Shown here one piece after another: positions 46,949-59,725 of a stretch of 64,000 bases of DNA. Each line of letters begins with the position of its first letter. Position 1 is the first letter of the stretch. Both the position numbers and the translations under genes were made by a program. Below the pieces are notes generated by a model. It made no database searches. It was not told where the DNA came from and saw only the letters and a program-made list of their open reading frames with translations. Source of the DNA: an uncultured Luteolibacter sp. (lineage in GTDB: Bacteria; Verrucomicrobiota; Verrucomicrobiia; Verrucomicrobiales; Akkermansiaceae); contig CAZMUK010000001.1 of the NCBI GenBank assembly GCA_964569415.1, forward strand, positions 16,481-80,480, given 5' to 3'.

Positions 46949-47785
46949 TTGCCGTCCTTGACGATTTCCTCCGTGGACAAGTTGCGCTCCATTGCCGCCG
47001 GACTGCGCCGTGATGTGATCGGCATGTCCCACCGCGCGCGGACGCCTCACCTCGGATCCTGCCTTTCGTGCATCGATCTGCTGGTCGCCTTGTATTGGGA
47101 TTTCCTGCACATCGATCCGCGCGATCCGACTTCGCCCGACCGCGATCGTTTCATCCTCAGCAAGGGCCATGCGGCCCCGGCGCTTTACTCCGTCCTATGT
47201 GCGCGCGGATTCTTTCCGCCCGTGCTGCTTGCGAACTACGCAAGCGACGGCGCCGCGCTTGCCGAGCAACCGGCGCCCGGCTGCGCCCCCGGCGTGGAAT
47301 GGGCCACCGGCTCGCTCGGGCACGGTCTTCCGGTTGGCGTCGGCATGGCGTTGGCTGCACGGATTGCGAAACGCGACTACCGCAGCGTTGTCATGCTCAG
47401 CGACGGGGAGTGCAACGAGGGCACCGTCTGGGAGGCGGCGATGTTCGCTGCCGCGCAACGGATCGGCTCGCTGACGGTGATCGTCGATTACAACAAGTGG
47501 CAAGCAACGGGACGCAGCGAGGAGGTGATGGCGCTCGCACCCTTGCGCGAAAAGTGGGAGGCTTTCGGGTGGGAAAGTTGCGAGGTGAACGGCCACGATT
47601 TTCCGGAGATCCGCGAGGCCCTCGCCCGTGCCGGGACGGCAGGCCGTTCCCGGCCCCTCGCCATCGTCGCCCACACCATCAAGGGCCGCGGCGTCTCGTT
47701 CATGGAGGACGACAACAACTGGCACTATCGCATTCCCAATGCGGAAGAACTGGCCAGCGCAGAAAAGGAACTCGCGCTGGAATGA
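46949..47785 (+). CDS. Transketolase, N-terminal (TPP-binding) subunit
   Basis: HLGSCLSCID, DRFILSKGHAA, TGSLGHGL, SDGECNEGTVWEA, HTIKGRGVSFME. TTG start is uncertain. Confidence 0.92.
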   Translation: MPSLTISSVDKLRSIAAGLRRDVIGMSHRARTPHLGSCLSCIDLLVALYWDFLHIDPRDPTSPDRDRFILSKGHAAPALYSVLCARGFFPPVLLANYASDGAALAEQPAPGCAPGVEWATGSLGHGLPVGVGMALAARIAKRDYRSVVMLSDGECNEGTVWEAAMFAAAQRIGSLTVIVDYNKWQATGRSEEVMALAPLREKWEAFGWESCEVNGHDFPEIREALARAGTAGRSRPLAIVAHTIKGRGVSFMEDDNNWHYRIPNAEELASAEKELALE

Positions 47786-48201
47786 TGAAGGAAGAAGGCA
47801 GAAGGCAAAATAGAAAAGCAGATCTTGCCGATAGAACAAAGCTCTATGCCCGGCGCATTATTCGGCTTGTGTCGGCTTTGCCGAAGTCGGTTGTTGCGCA
47901 AGTGTTGGGCAAACAGGTTCTGCGTAGCGGAACGTCGGTGGGCGCGAACTATCGCGAAGCATCACGAGCTAGAAGCAAAGCTGAGTTCATCGCAAAAATG
48001 GGCGATTGCCTGAAAGAACTTGGTGAATCTGAATACTGGCTCGAGCTACTTTCCGAAGAAAGCGTGGTTCCATCGGCCAAACTTGCTCCGCTGCTGCAAG
48101 AAACTCACGAGCTAACCGCGATATTTGTCACGAGTATCAAAACCGCCCGCGGAAGCTGACTGTGCATTCATCATTCTGCACTCTGACTTCTAACTTTTCC
48201 C
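47780..48201. mobile_element. Putative repeat-bounded four-helix-bundle cassette inserted between the transketolase subunits
   Basis: gaatgatgaa (47780-47789) and ttcatcattc (48167-48176) form a perfect 10-bp inverted repeat. Purine-rich short repeats lie on the left and pyrimidine-rich short repeats on the right. Confidence 0.55.
47782..48159 (+). CDS. Four helix bundle protein (TIGR02436-type)
   Basis: QVLRSGTSVGANYREA.RARSKAEFIAK...LKEL.ESEYWLELL...ELTAIFVTSIK. 125 aa; visibly more A/T-rich than its neighbours. Confidence 0.93.
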   Translation: MMKEEGRRQNRKADLADRTKLYARRIIRLVSALPKSVVAQVLGKQVLRSGTSVGANYREASRARSKAEFIAKMGDCLKELGESEYWLELLSEESVVPSAKLAPLLQETHELTAIFVTSIKTARGS

Positions 48202-49125: not shown

Positions 49126-49164
49126 CATTCTGCATTCATCATTCTAAATTCTTCATTTCACTTC
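49125..49164. repeat. ORF-less copy of the four-helix-bundle cassette right-end repeat filling a whole intergenic space
   Basis: tgcattcatcattct at 49131-49145 is identical to 48163-48177. Confidence 0.75.
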
Positions 49165-49836: not shown

Positions 49837-50519
49837 GAACCACGAATCACACGGATTCCACGGATTATTCAGGGAAAATCAAGACTGAGTGCACATTGGG
49901 AAAGACCTCACGAAATCGCGAGGCATCCGGTTAGGGGTAGAAATTCTTTCCTGAGTCTGTTCGGGTATCTGTGCGATTTGGCACTTCCAAGGTTCAATTT
50001 TTCCTATCGTTTCAAACAACTTCTTACCGGACCAATCCGTGAAGCGGTCCGATCCCGAGTCAATGGCTTCCATGAATCCTCCTGGAAAACCACTGGTTCA
50101 CGAAGAACTCAGCAAGCGGATCATCGGTGCGGCCATGGATGTTCTCAATGCACTCCGACCCGGGTTGGATGAAAAGGTCCATGAGAACGCCCTGGTTGTT
50201 GAGTTGCGTCTCCGCGGCCATCAGGTGGAGCAGCAGCGAGGGTTCCCCATCCGGTATAAGGGAAATTTGGTGGGAACGCTGATTCCGGATCTGATCGTTG
50301 ATGATCTCGTAATTGTGGATACCAAGGTCGTCTCCACCTTCAACGATGCCCATACCGCTCAAATGACTGGTTATTTGGCAATTACCGGCCTTCGATTTGC
50401 CATCCTGTTGAATTTCAAGTCTGCGAAACTCGAGTGGAAACGGGTCGTCCGCTGATAAACATGAGGTTTTGCACACGGCAACTCTTTTGAATCAGTGTCA
50501 TTTGTGTGATCCGTGGTTC
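49837..50519. mobile_element. GxxExxY cassette bounded by 30-bp imperfect terminal inverted repeats
   Basis: Left gaaccacgaatcacacggattccacggatt (49837-49866); the reverse complement of the right repeat (50490-50519) is gaaccacggatcacacaaatgacactgatt. 24 of 30 positions match. Confidence 0.7.
50072..50455 (+). CDS. GxxExxY protein (PD-(D/E)xK nuclease fold)
   Basis: IIGAAMDVLNALRPGLDEKVHENAL, YKGNLVG...PDLIVDDLVIVDTK, AQMTGYL..TG...ILLNF. Start at 50072 or 50063. Confidence 0.9.
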   Translation: MNPPGKPLVHEELSKRIIGAAMDVLNALRPGLDEKVHENALVVELRLRGHQVEQQRGFPIRYKGNLVGTLIPDLIVDDLVIVDTKVVSTFNDAHTAQMTGYLAITGLRFAILLNFKSAKLEWKRVVR

Positions 50520-50526
50520 GAAAACC

Positions 50527-57566: not shown

Positions 57567-58550
57567 ATGGGCACTTGTTTCTGGAGAGGGCGGCGGGTGC
57601 TGGTGACAGGCGCTGGCGGTTTTATCGGCCGCAGGCTGGTGCAGGCCATTTCAGCCCGCGGCGCCTGCGTCACCCGTTTGTTCCATGGGTGCGAGGGACG
57701 CAAGTTCCAACAGGGTGTCGGATGGCTGGCGGCGGGGATCACCGACCTGGGCGATATGGCCCATGCCGTTGGTGACGGTGATTTCGAACTGGTTTTTCAC
57801 CTGGCGGCGGTCAACACCAATCGGGGCAGTAGGTTTCCTGCCTACGGCGTCTTTGAAACGAATTTGCGCGGAACCTACACGGTTCTTGAGGCGGCACGCA
57901 TGGCGGGGAAGCAGCCGAAGGTGGTGGTTTTCTCCAGCCGTGAAGTCGAGCCCTTGCTGCGGCGGGATCCGGATGGACCCACCCATCCCTATGCCGCATC
58001 CAAGCTCGGTGCGGAACTTGCTGCCGCTGCCTATGCGGACACTTGCGGCCTGGATGTGTCCATCATCAGAACCGGAAATGCATACGGTCCCGGCGACTTG
58101 AATTTCGGAAGACTGATTCCCGCCGTGATCCTCTCGCTCCTTACCGGCGAGCGGCCCGTCATAAAGGGACCGCCCGAGGCCGTGAGGGACTACATTTACA
58201 TCGACGATTTGATTGCGGCCTCGATGGAAACAGCCGAGAGAGCAAATGGAAACGTCCGGGGCGAGCGGGTGCATCGGCTTGCCACCGGAGTCCAGACAAC
58301 TACGGCTTCGGTTGTCCGCAAGCTCCTCAAGCTCGCCGGCTGGAAGGATGTGGATCCTTTTCCGGGCGTTCCATTCGGCGGCGAGAGAACGGATGAGTAC
58401 CATATTCCCGCACGTTCCGGGTCCAGCCCGGAAAAGTGGAGCGGGGTATCCCTCGACGAGGGGCTTGTGCGGACTTTTGCGTGGTACCAGCGGATCTTTC
58501 GAAGGTTTGGCGGCTCCGCTCTCAGGGAACTGGGGAAAGGCCATCCATGA
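57567..58550 (+). CDS. NAD-dependent CDP-sugar epimerase/reductase (RfbG-related SDR)
   Basis: FWRGRRVLVTGAGGFIG, FHLAA, YAASK, GNAYGPGD, RDYIYIDD. Confidence 0.85.
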   Translation: MGTCFWRGRRVLVTGAGGFIGRRLVQAISARGACVTRLFHGCEGRKFQQGVGWLAAGITDLGDMAHAVGDGDFELVFHLAAVNTNRGSRFPAYGVFETNLRGTYTVLEAARMAGKQPKVVVFSSREVEPLLRRDPDGPTHPYAASKLGAELAAAAYADTCGLDVSIIRTGNAYGPGDLNFGRLIPAVILSLLTGERPVIKGPPEAVRDYIYIDDLIAASMETAERANGNVRGERVHRLATGVQTTTASVVRKLLKLAGWKDVDPFPGVPFGGERTDEYHIPARSGSSPEKWSGVSLDEGLVRTFAWYQRIFRRFGGSALRELGKGHP

Positions 58551-59071
58551 TCGTGGCTTTTCTAACCGTTTCCGCCGTCGCCCTGTGTGCGGCCTGGCTC
58601 CTGCACATCCTGCTCTGGCGGGTGCGACTTCCTTCGCGGCAACTGATGACCTTGCTATCGGTATTTTCCGCAGTCTGGGTTTTGGCCTCGGTCTGGATTC
58701 TGCTCTCGCCGGGATCGTTCGGTTTGGGGGATCGGGTTTCGGCTGCGGGATTCATCTACTTTGGCCTCCTCTATTGGTCCGCGGCTCTCTGCTATGTGAT
58801 CACCTATTCCGCGATGGAGGGGGACAGTCCGACGCTGAGTCTGACACGGCACCTGCATCGCACGGGCAAGGGGGGTGTCCCGCATGAGGAGATTGAGGAG
58901 TTTTTCCGTCAAAGGCCGTTTGTCGGTGCCCGGGTGACGGCTTTGGTCGCGGACGGGGTTCTCGTCGAGGAAGAGAGCGGCTATCGGCTTTCGTCGGGGA
59001 GGTATCTGTTTTTCCGCGTGATCCTCGGCTATCGGCGGTTCGTCTTCGGGCAGGTAAAGGCGGGGGGATAG
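58547..59071 (+). CDS. Small membrane protein (3-4 TM plus soluble C-terminal domain), paralog A
   Basis: Hydrophobic N-terminal half; C-terminal ..HEEIEEFF..ARVTALVADGVLVEEESGYRL. ATGA-coupled. Confidence 0.75.
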   Translation: MIVAFLTVSAVALCAAWLLHILLWRVRLPSRQLMTLLSVFSAVWVLASVWILLSPGSFGLGDRVSAAGFIYFGLLYWSAALCYVITYSAMEGDSPTLSLTRHLHRTGKGGVPHEEIEEFFRQRPFVGARVTALVADGVLVEEESGYRLSSGRYLFFRVILGYRRFVFGQVKAGG

Positions 59072-59086
59072 CAGCGATCGGGTTTT

Positions 59087-59173
59087 GCCACGGATTTCGC
59101 GTTCAGCGCAGATATGGGGTGCGAAAAATCAATTAATTCGGATCAGTGAGATTGGTTTCGTCAGTGGTTCGAA
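59087..59173. repeat. ORF-less element resembling both ends of the GxxExxY cassette
   Basis: 59141-59173 matches 50490-50522 at 25 of 33 positions without gaps. gccacggatt at 59087 resembles the left-end ccacg(a/g)at motif. Confidence 0.65.
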
Positions 59174-59185
59174 CCCCGAAATACC

Positions 59186-59725
59186 ATGGCGGTTGAATGG
59201 TTTTATTTGTCGAGCCCCATTGCGGCATTGGCCATCATGGTCTTGGTGCAGGCTGTTTTCCTTCGCCTGAGGCGCGGAGAGCGCTTTTTCGAGTCGGTGG
59301 TTCGGGGGTTTTCGGCGGGGCTGCTGGTTGTGCTTGCCCTGCAGGCGGTGTTGCTGCTGGTTTTTCCGCGCAATGCCGACCGTTGGGTATTGGCCCTCGT
59401 CGCCAATCCGGCCATCTACATCATGCTCGCCTACTGTTTTTTCAACTTCATCAATCTCGGCCAGGCATCGATCCGGATCCGCATTTTCAAGGAATGCGAC
59501 GAGCGAGGTGGTTTCATCACACATGAGGAGTTGCGCACCGTGTATGACGACGAGCTGATCCGCAGGGCGAGGCTCGAGCGCTTGCTCGAGGGTGGCGACA
59601 TCGTTTGCGAGGACGGCCGATGGAGGCTGGTCAATCCAAGACTGGTTCCGGTGGCCGTTGTGGTTTTCGCGCTCAAGAGGTTTGTCTTGCGCCGGGAGAG
59701 TGAATTCGACGGGATCGGCAAATGA
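59186..59725 (+). CDS. Small membrane protein (3-4 TM plus soluble C-terminal domain), paralog B
   Basis: Hydrophobic N-terminal half; C-terminal ..HEELRTVY..ARLERLLEGGDIVCEDGRWRL. Confidence 0.75.
   Translation: MAVEWFYLSSPIAALAIMVLVQAVFLRLRRGERFFESVVRGFSAGLLVVLALQAVLLLVFPRNADRWVLALVANPAIYIMLAYCFFNFINLGQASIRIRIFKECDERGGFITHEELRTVYDDELIRRARLERLLEGGDIVCEDGRWRLVNPRLVPVAVVVFALKRFVLRRESEFDGIGK

What the first reader, a model, noticed from the sequence alone, without database searches (positions are those of the whole stretch)
59087..59173. Orphan MITE-like copy of the GxxExxY element ends, 9 kb downstream
Seen: gatcagtgagattggtttcgtcagtggttcgaa (59141-59173) aligns without gaps to aatcagtgtcatttgtgtgatccgtggttcgaa (50490-50522) at 25/33 positions and likewise lies just before an ATG (59186). 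A left-end-like gccacggatt sits 54 bp upstream, with an A/T-rich spacer (aaaaatcaattaatt) in place of the ORF. It separates two paralogous membrane genes. Inference: a deletion derivative or excision scar, possibly linked to duplication of the paralogs.
Basis: partly seen in the sequence, partly recalled or inferred. Interest (0 to 1): 0.68.

Follow-up and report, generated by a model that had tools for sequence, protein, structure and literature searches.

The report
Worn gene-less copy of cassette arms
The 114-base gap between two co-transcribed membrane-protein genes holds a worn, gene-less copy of the repeat-armed hairpin that elsewhere wraps small GxxExxY or four-helix-bundle genes. Relatives have better copies, other hairpins, a gene-carrying version or nothing at this same junction, so it is one more example of an element class I found no paper on, not a new kind of thing.

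Summary
59141-59173 matches the right end of the GxxExxY cassette (50490-50522) at 25/33. That is the third-best hit in the 2.6 Mb genome, reached by 1 of 250 shuffled queries.

The "ends" are arrays of 7-nt words (C-R-C-N-R-A-K) at a 9-nt period. They bracket nearly every GxxExxY gene in this verrucomicrobial lineage and also occur without a gene.

The site is a two-armed gene-less element:
- left arm 59088-59113
- 28-nt loop
- right arm 59142-59173

It is homologous across arm, loop and arm to a better-kept copy at the same junction in a metagenomic relative (47/65 identical; 0 of 2000 shuffles). Two further relatives carry copies of the same word type.

Other relatives have, at this junction:
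- a plain 34-nt spacer (12 loci)
- unrelated array hairpins
- in one case, a full cassette with a 23S_rRNA_IVP gene, not a GxxExxY gene

In this genome the middle word of both arms has decayed, the arms no longer pair (11/26), and no significant fold is predicted.

The reading as an excision scar of a GxxExxY gene is unproven. A link to the paralog duplication is not supported. It is a decayed member of a recurrent element class with no published description that I could find.

The parts
59072..59185 (+). 114-nt intercistronic spacer holding the element. It runs from just after the TAG stop of the upstream gene (59069-59071) to just before the ATG of the downstream gene (59186).
   Evidence: The neighbouring junctions of the operon are 4-nt overlaps (58547/58550 and 59722/59725). 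Homologous junctions in 12 related loci are 34 nt.
59088..59113 (+). Left arm: CC + CACGGAT (59089-95), tt, CGCGTTC (59098-104, decayed word), ag, CGCAGAT (59107-13).
   Evidence: The pattern probability is about 7e-4. It aligns to the clean left array AACCACGGATTACGCGGATAGCACTGAT of L057.
59114..59141 (+). 28-nt A/T-rich loop, atggggtgcgaaaaatcaattaattcgg.
   Evidence: It has the same length as the L057 loop, and 18/28 positions are identical by my count from the alignment. The L071 loop looks related by eye. It has no match to the GxxExxY cassette interior and no other copy in the genome.
59142..59173 (-). Right arm, read outer to inner on the minus strand: TTCGAAC + CACTGAC, ga, AACCAAT (decayed word), ct, CACTGAT.
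   Evidence: 25/33 to the cassette right end. 20/27 to the intact orthologous right arm of L078. 22/32 to L071.
58547..59071 (+). Upstream gene (P0001 family), about 174 aa from the ATG that overlaps the epimerase stop. The N-terminal half is hydrophobic. No Pfam family.
   Evidence: Homologues of 167-174 aa precede the P0002 homologue in the related loci.
59186..59725 (+). Downstream gene (P0002), 179 aa. The N-terminal half is hydrophobic. No Pfam family. Distant paralog of the upstream gene.
   Evidence: 111 homologues, mostly 75-84% identical, from Verrucomicrobia metagenomes.
49837..50522 (+). Reference copy: GxxExxY (TIGR04256 / PF13366) gene cassette with inverted word-array arms at 49837-49866 and 50490-50519. 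It lies between a methyltransferase stop (49831-33) and a dehydrogenase ATG (50527).
   Evidence: 30-nt arms, 80% complementary. (E 2.7e-36 and 9e-34). (the arms close the predicted RNA fold).

Best explanation
**What it is.** 59088-59173 is a decayed, gene-less member of a class of 'word-array hairpin' elements. Each arm is a short tandem array of 7-nt words (C-R-C-N-R-A-K, about 9-nt period, outer end ..AACC). The two arms face each other across a loop.

**Two forms of the class.** The same arms occur around a small gene (GxxExxY nuclease-fold or 23S_rRNA_IVP four-helix bundle) or around a 17-50-nt loop.

**Origin of this copy (inferred).**
- It entered what is normally a 34-nt spacer between two translationally coupled genes of a glycan operon.
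- This happened in an ancestor shared with some freshwater Verrucomicrobia, or it was delivered there more than once.

**How it works (inferred).**
- In intact relatives the arms fold, on the operon's sense transcript, into an imperfect stem of about 26-30 bp.
- I infer that the stem acts as an intercistronic mRNA hairpin: an RNase III-type processing site or a 3'-end stabiliser.
- I also infer that the arms are what the element's own mobility or maintenance machinery recognises.
- Processing, mobility and any role of the GxxExxY protein are not shown.

**State in this genome.**
- The middle word of both arms has mutated.
- The long stem no longer forms, so the copy is most likely a relic with little or no remaining activity.
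For: **Family identity of the arms**
- 24 triple-word arrays in the genome against 0-2 in shuffles.
- 25/33 match, p about 0.004.
- left-arm pattern, probability about 7e-4.

**Homology as a whole unit**
- window against L057, 47/65 identical across left arm, loop and start of the right arm, 0 of 2000 shuffles. L071 matches at 22/32 (14 of 2000 shuffles).
- L078 right arm, 20/27.

**Insertion into a short spacer**
- 34-nt array-free spacer in 12 loci, including the 69%-identity outgroup L054.
- the neighbouring junctions are 4-nt overlaps.

**Full and empty forms of one element at this junction**
- L076 (IVP gene) and L069 (gene-less) share arms at 25/27 and 35/37.

**Class-wide pattern**
- 26 of 29 GxxExxY genes in relatives have inverted word arrays within about 250 nt, by my reading of the flanks.
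- their best-pairing flank stretches are 22-26/26 Watson-Crick in most loci.
- tens to 262 arrays per genome in the genus, against 0-20 for the control pattern, with many +/- doublets 47-112 nt apart in the complete genome G015.

**RNA-level hairpin**
- junction elements of relatives fold arm to arm.
- the sense fold is more stable than the antisense fold in 9 of 9, with 49 G-U pairs against 18 in the eight relatives.

**Decay here**
- arms pair at 11/26 Watson-Crick, p 0.75.
- fold z-score -0.76.
Against: - **Too conserved for a neutral relic.** The element is 72% identical to the L057 copy, while four-fold degenerate sites of the flanking genes are 41-45% identical (binomial p 8e-6). So the sequence is either still constrained or arrived later than the host genes diverged.
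- **Profile score is weak.** The right arm scores 8.8 bits, E 5.2.
- **Polarity is not proven.** The tree of the two flanking proteins does not resolve whether the three or four CACGGAT-type copies form one clade. The 34-nt clade is nested among element-bearing lineages.
Confidence: 0.72

Rival explanations
1. The element is still functional. It is a conserved intercistronic RNA or DNA signal, such as a binding site for a protein like the GxxExxY nuclease or a processing or stability determinant. It works through the two surviving word pairs and the A/T-rich loop rather than through a long stem.
For: - The element is 47/65 identical to L057, against 41-45% at four-fold sites.
- The arms of L069 and L076 are 60/64 identical, against 63% at four-fold sites (p 1e-8).
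- Words 1 and 3 of each arm can still pair 6/7 in register (read from the sequence).
- The loop motif TGC.AAAAAT....TAATTC.G is shared with L057.
Against: - Twelve related loci do without any element (34-nt spacer).
- The fold is not better than shuffles.
- In-register pairing is not above chance.
- No promoter- or terminator-like site lies in the spacer.
- No Rfam family matches.
- High similarity could equally come from later, independent delivery of related copies.
Confidence: 0.2
2. It is an excision scar or internal-deletion derivative. A gene-carrying cassette (GxxExxY or IVP) once sat at this junction and lost its gene, leaving the two arms and a short joint.
For: - Full and empty forms with the same arms exist at this same junction in relatives (L076 and L069).
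- The word type (CACGGAT/CACTGAT) is the same as in the GxxExxY cassette 9 kb upstream.
- Array counts correlate with GxxExxY gene counts over 41 genomes (Spearman 0.66, not corrected for phylogeny or genome size).
Against: - None of the four CACGGAT-type copies at this junction carries a gene.
- The loop does not match the cassette interior (182 of 300 shuffles do as well).
- The 28-nt loop is shared with L057, so any deletion would predate their split.
- In L076 against L069 the direction (gene gain or loss) is equally open.
Confidence: 0.1
3. It is a chance resemblance, or a tRNA-derived fragment such as an att remnant. GTCAGTGGTTCGAACCC is 16/17 identical to the T-arm of tRNA-Val(GAC).
For: -: the 17-mer hits one place in almost every related genome. 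In the window's own genome the hit lies in the T-arm of tRNA-Val(GAC) (C65:6125-6199).
- The HMM score of the right arm is weak.
Against: - There is no T-stem 3' strand or acceptor stem after the match.
- The orthologous copies L057, L071 and L078 lack the TTCGAA end but share the rest.
- The whole-unit homology to L057 cannot be chance (0 of 2000 shuffles).
Confidence: 0.02

Closest known systems
REP/REPIN repeats with their RAYT gene (PMC3116915, PMC3337134)
   Same: Short intergenic repeats occur as inverted doublets that form hairpins. The same repeats flank a small single-copy nuclease-type gene. Gene-less copies outnumber gene copies.
   Different: - No Y1/RAYT gene is in this genome; the associated genes are PD-(D/E)XK (GxxExxY) or four-helix-bundle proteins.
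- The arms are tandem arrays of 7-nt words whose sequence differs from copy to copy, not one conserved palindrome.
- Copy number is low: 24 arrays.
ORF-bearing intervening sequences of bacterial 23S rRNA (Coxiella, Leptospira; PMC4990558)
   Same: A unit of about 0.4-0.7 kb is bounded by inverted repeats that form a stem in the host transcript. It may carry a PF05635 (S23p/IVP) ORF, and a PF05635 cassette sits at this very junction in L076. From established knowledge, RNase III cuts the IVS stem.
   Different: The elements here sit between protein-coding cistrons, not in rRNA helices. This copy has no ORF and no intact stem. Processing has not been shown.
Ssn (GIY-YIG) nucleases and their NTS/SRM hairpin repeats (PMC11893778)
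   Same: A small nuclease gene is associated with dispersed intergenic hairpin repeats that it recognises. This is the nearest experimentally shown case of a nuclease reading its own repeats.
   Different: The nuclease fold differs (GIY-YIG against PD-(D/E)XK), and so does the repeat grammar. No binding or cleavage data exist for GxxExxY proteins.
MITEs co-transcribed into operon mRNAs, such as Correia/NEMIS of Neisseria and ERIC or BOX elements (from my own knowledge, not checked in the papers held)
   Same: Elements of about 100 nt with inverted ends lie between co-directional genes and fold in the mRNA. For Correia elements, cleavage by RNase III has been reported.
   Different: No target-site duplication is visible, there is no conserved internal sequence, the arms are word arrays, and no partner transposase is known.

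Membership tests
Word-array hairpin elements (arms of GxxExxY / IVP cassettes; operational class, no published definition found) | Arms built of at least 3 tandem 7-nt words C-R-C-N-R-A-K at a period of about 9 nt, with ..(A)ACC at the outer end | tested here: inconclusive
   Words 1 and 3 fit on both arms, apart from the last base of the outer right word (CACTGAC). The middle word is decayed on both (CGCGTTC, AACCAAT). The outer ends are GCC and GAACC. The strict triple-word pattern does not pick this site up.
Word-array hairpin elements | Two arms in inverted orientation that are complementary | tested here: not met
   The orientation is correct, but only 11/26 Watson-Crick pairs form (p 0.75) and there is no arm-to-arm fold. 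Intact copies at the same junction do fold arm to arm.
Word-array hairpin elements | Fills the gap between the stop and the next start of co-directional genes | tested here: met
   The element lies 16 nt after the TAG and 12 nt before the ATG. The cassette at 49837-50522 lies 3 nt after the TGA and 4 nt before the ATG.
Word-array hairpin elements | Homologous copies elsewhere, including gene-carrying versions with the same kind of arms | tested here: met
   Homologous copies are in L057, L071 and L078. An IVP cassette is at the same junction in L076. A GxxExxY cassette of the same word type lies 9 kb away.
MITE | Target-site duplication flanking the terminal inverted repeats | tested here: not met
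   No direct repeat is visible at the borders of this copy, of the 50-kb cassette or of L071 (read from the sequences). The spacer flanks are too diverged for a strict test.
MITE | Multiple near-identical copies, including the internal sequence, in one genome | tested here: not met
   The 114-nt query finds only itself in the genome, plus short chance or tRNA matches.
REPIN / RAYT system | A RAYT (Y1 transposase, PF01797) gene flanked by the repeats | tested here: not met
   PF01797 has no match in the genome, while 6 of 14 control genomes match.
23S rRNA intervening sequence | Inserted in helix 25 or 45 of 23S rRNA and removed by RNase III | tested here: not met
   The element lies between two protein-coding genes.
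Ssn/NTS system | GIY-YIG Ssn nuclease gene associated with the repeats | tested here: not met
   The associated gene matches only PF13366 (PD-(D/E)XK) in Pfam. I did not search the genome for Ssn genes.
tRNA-derived att remnant | Copy of the 3' part of a tRNA gene, from the T-arm through the acceptor stem | tested here: not met
   Only 16/17 identity to the 5' T-stem and loop of tRNA-Val. Identity ends before the 3' T-stem.

The most novel reading that the evidence does not exclude
The stop/start junction is a recurrent docking site for one class of word-array hairpins. Their arms are kept more similar than synonymous sites, and their loop can be empty or hold either of two small genes of unknown function (GxxExxY nuclease fold, or 23S_rRNA_IVP four-helix bundle). 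On this reading:
- the orphan is an empty (never filled, or vacated) dock;
- the arms are the recognition sites of the cassette-encoded proteins;
- the class, with the 23S rRNA intervening sequences, forms a nuclease/repeat partnership comparable to REP/RAYT or Ssn/NTS, with no published description that I could find.
Probability: 0.25. Interest if true: 0.75.

Novelty: new variant of a known kind. Interest (0 to 1): 0.4.

Why it matters
This copy matters little on its own: it is worn and probably inert. Its value is comparative. One conserved gene junction shows five states:
- empty (34 nt)
- three or more unrelated array hairpins
- an orthologous series of one hairpin in different stages of decay
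- a gene-carrying version
- its gene-less twin

That is the kind of natural series needed to work out how these cassettes arrive, lose or gain their gene, and decay. PF13366 (GxxExxY) and PF05635 (IVP) are large protein families with no established function. Apart from what is published on the 23S rRNA intervening sequences (for example PMC4990558), I found no paper that describes their repeat arms. If the arms prove to be the proteins' targets, that would give both families a function and might explain the origin of the 23S rRNA intervening sequences.

Tried and rejected
- **Rfam.** Nothing reached the gathering score in the whole window. In 58950-59300 only noise appeared (Gut-1 at 15.7 bits against a cut-off of 50). 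Nine other array loci gave only a sub-threshold CyVA-1 hit.
- **Promoter and terminator scan.** None lies in the spacer.
- **tRNA or att fragment.** The many 17-nt hits in relatives match a stretch that is 16/17 identical to the tRNA-Val T-arm in the window's own genome. Rejected.
- **Left/right arm complementarity as support for a MITE.** Not above chance.
- **Loop as remnant of the GxxExxY cassette interior.** No similarity.
- **Mini-ORF in the loop (MGCEKSINSDQ).** There is no start codon or shared frame in L057 or L071. Rejected.
- **RNA duplex energies of long cassette flanks to find a strand preference.** Energies were implausibly large and the longest-ORF strand calls were wrong in this high-GC DNA. 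I discarded this and replaced it with direct pair counts, which showed no G:T against A:C bias in gene-carrying cassettes.
- **Same-genus and same-order genomes.** None of 40 has the P0002 gene, so the junction could only be compared in metagenome contigs.
- **Single-protein tree.** Unresolved. The two-protein tree resolves only the 34-nt clade.
- **C76:8058 match to the left arm.** It lies inside a 935-codon ORF, so it is chance.

Full report
**1. Observation**

- 59141-59173 matches 50490-50522 at 25 of 33 positions without gaps.
- Scanning that 33-mer over both strands of the whole 2.6 Mb, 176-contig genome, this is the third-best hit.
- All hits of 22 or more belong to one repeat family.
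- None of 40 and then 1 of 250 shuffled queries reached 25 anywhere in the genome.
- A profile of the six clean family members aligns the right arm full-length but weakly (8.8 bits, E 5.2).

So by itself the right arm is a plausible but degenerate member of the family.

**2. What the 'GxxExxY element ends' are**

The 30-nt inverted ends of the cassette at 49837-50522 are arrays of three 7-nt words of the form C-R-C-N-R-A-K. The words are spaced by 2 nt, and the outer end carries GAACC.
- The genome has 24 such triple arrays, against 0-2 in shuffled genomes. They come in several word types: CACGGAT, CGCAGAG/CACAAAG, CGCGGAG and CGCGAAT.
- The genome has three clear GxxExxY genes (TIGR04256 / PF13366); the family scan lists a fourth, unplaced match.
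- In 40 related genomes, 26 of 29 inspected GxxExxY genes have inverted word arrays of many different sequences within about 250 nt, by my reading of the flanks.
- Their best-pairing flank stretches are 22-26/26 Watson-Crick in most loci. About half of these genes lie antisense to the host genes.
- Arrays number from tens to 262 per genome in the genus, against 0-20 for a control pattern.
- In the complete genome G015 many form +/- doublets 47-112 nt apart, that is, gene-less hairpins.
- Array counts track GxxExxY gene counts (Spearman 0.66, uncorrected).
- The genome has no RAYT-type gene.

**3. Anatomy of the orphan**

The operon genes on both sides are joined by 4-nt overlaps (58547/58550 and 59722/59725). 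The 114-nt spacer 59072-59185 therefore stands out.

| Part | Coordinates | Content |
|---|---|---|
| Left arm | 59088-59113 | CC-CACGGAT-tt-CGCGTTC-ag-CGCAGAT |
| Loop | 59114-59141 | 28 nt, A/T-rich |
| Right arm | 59142-59173 | ATCAGTG-ag-ATTGGTT-tc-GTCAGTG-GTTCGAA |

- The left-arm pattern (C, word, 11 nt, word) occurs 50 times in the genome on both strands. That gives about 7e-4 for one in this place and orientation.
- Words 1 and 3 of each arm could still pair 6/7 with their partners.
- The middle words are ruined on both arms. Overall the arms pair at 11/26, no better than random.
- The predicted fold is ordinary (z -0.76) and does not join the arms.

**4. The same junction in relatives**

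No genome of the genus or order held here has the downstream gene. Metagenomes do: 111 homologues, mostly 75-84% identical, named Verrucomicrobia or Chthoniobacterales where named. I read 27 related junctions.

| State at the junction | Loci |
|---|---|
| 34-nt spacer with no array | 12 loci, including L054 (69% identity) |
| CACGGAT-type gene-less hairpin | L057, L071, L078 |
| CACRGAG-type hairpin | L051, L075, L056 |
| 7-nt-period CTTGAG/CTCAGG hairpin | L052, L053, L069, L070, L072-L074, L077 |
| Full cassette with a PF05635 (23S_rRNA_IVP) gene | L076 |
| Different upstream gene, so not comparable | L065, L067 |

- L076 and L069 share the same arms (25/27 and 35/37 identical), while their P0002-like genes are 83% identical in nucleotides.
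- The window's element aligns without gaps to L057 over left arm, loop and the start of the right arm: 47/65 identical, 0 of 2000 shuffles.
- Its right arm is 20/27 identical to the intact L078 arm.

So the two-armed unit is real and has orthologues or close homologues. The left 'end' is validated by the clean array of L057. No GxxExxY gene was found at this junction.

**5. Polarity and age**

- A tree of the two flanking proteins supports the 34-nt loci as one clade (99-100%) with L075 as sister. Deeper nodes are unresolved.
- The 34-nt length recurs in the outgroup L054. At least three unrelated arm types, with different word periods, occupy the junction.
- Repeated insertion into a short ancestral spacer is therefore the simpler history. 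Precise loss is not excluded.
- Four-fold degenerate sites of the flanking genes are only 41-45% identical between the window and L057, while the element is 72% identical (p 8e-6).
- Likewise the L069/L076 arms are 94% identical, against 63% at four-fold sites (p 1e-8).

Either the elements are constrained, or they arrived or were exchanged after the host genes diverged. I cannot tell which.

**6. How it most likely works**

- Shown: the architecture, the homology and the junction series.
- Predicted only: intact junction elements fold arm to arm on the sense strand.
- For all nine spacers the sense fold is more stable than the antisense fold. In the eight relatives it has 49 G-U pairs against 18. 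That points to an RNA hairpin in the operon transcript. G/U-rich strands always fold better, and some of these elements are related, so this is suggestive only.
- By analogy with 23S rRNA intervening sequences (PMC4990558), and from my own knowledge of REP and Correia elements, I infer an intercistronic processing or stabilising hairpin.
- I also infer that the arms are what the cassette machinery recognises.
- Gene-carrying cassettes have near-perfect Watson-Crick arms with no strand bias, which is equally compatible with a DNA-level role.
- In this genome the stem is lost, so the copy is most likely a relic. The conservation described in part 5 is the main argument against that.

**7. Rivals considered**

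- A still-functional signal (about 0.2).
- An excision or deletion product of a gene cassette (about 0.1).
- Chance or a tRNA fragment (about 0.02). The 17-mer GTCAGTGGTTCGAACCC is 16/17 identical to the tRNA-Val T-arm. That accounts for the many short hits in relatives, but it ends before the 3' T-stem and is absent from the orthologous copies.
- No Rfam family, promoter or terminator accounts for the site.
- The loop is unrelated to the cassette interior.

**8. Comparison and novelty**

The closest known systems are REP/REPIN with RAYT, ORF-bearing 23S rRNA intervening sequences, Ssn/NTS (PMC11893778) and operon-embedded MITEs.
- It is not a member of any of them. There is no RAYT gene, the element is not in rRNA, the associated nuclease has a different fold, and there is no target duplication or multicopy interior.
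- The papers held mention GxxExxY / PF13366 five times, with nothing on flanking repeats.
- Earlier notes of this scan describe the same class in many genomes. They agree with my reading but are not independent evidence.
- The orphan itself is an ordinary, decayed member. What this window adds is the multi-state junction.

**9. Limits**

- Most related loci are short metagenome contigs. L078 is a scaffold with an N gap that joins two junction forms.
- The tree rests on about 350 residues.
- The word pattern and 'skip the middle word' were partly chosen after seeing the data.

Noticed in passing
window 47785-48159 (flanks 47780-48201) and 49126-49164: A 23S_rRNA_IVP (PF05635, E 4.5e-18) gene starts in ATGA overlap with the preceding gene's stop. 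It is followed by CATTC-type 7-nt word repeats (tgcattcatcattctgcac...). The same words fill the 39-nt gap at 49126-49164 without a gene. This is a second full/empty pair in the same operon.
   Followed up: partly
genome C6:500-900, C6:17300-17650, C26:1500-1720, C35:24150-24450 (loci L001, L003, L005, L006): Composite intergenic repeats. Word arrays of several types alternate with a conserved core of about 45 nt, TTCTTTGTTGAGCCTG...CAGGCGCTCT, that can form its own hairpin. Runs such as CTAGAGG or GGCGGTAAG repeats also occur. No Rfam match.
   Followed up: partly
genome C9:46-396 (L002); relatives L033, L034, L042, L043; L023, L024, L026: In L033 a GxxExxY cassette sits between the homocysteine S-methyltransferase part and the pterin/B12-binding part of a split methionine synthase. 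In L023 one sits antisense between pheS and pheT (Pfam confirmed for L033 and L023). The other listed loci, and C9 in the window's own genome, look the same by eye.
   Followed up: partly
L076:187-698: In the IVP cassette at the studied junction the left arm is present twice: once before the gene, and once again just before the loop and right arm.
   Followed up: no
L078:690-1020: The scaffold joins two different junction forms across a run of N: a CACAGAG-type hairpin followed by a P0002-like gene start, then the right half of a CACGGAT-type hairpin followed by another P0002-like start. This is probably two co-assembled strains.
   Followed up: no
L012 (G003:C2) 560-960: A tRNA 3' end is followed by two tandem units of about 165 nt. 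Each ends in a copy of the tRNA 3' terminus (aatccagccctgcccacca) and contains a T-arm-like gggttcgaaccactg. It looks like stacked att sites of integrative elements. It is unrelated to the finding.
   Followed up: no
relatives G002, G030: Two genomes with no GxxExxY gene still have word arrays. G002 has 26 forward and 2 reverse; G030 has 20 and 17. The lopsided count in G002 suggests one long tandem array.
   Followed up: no
L005:1725-1793 (genome C26:2324-2392): Sub-threshold match to the CyVA-1 RNA motif (26.8 bits against a cut-off of 41.4, E 0.029).
   Followed up: no
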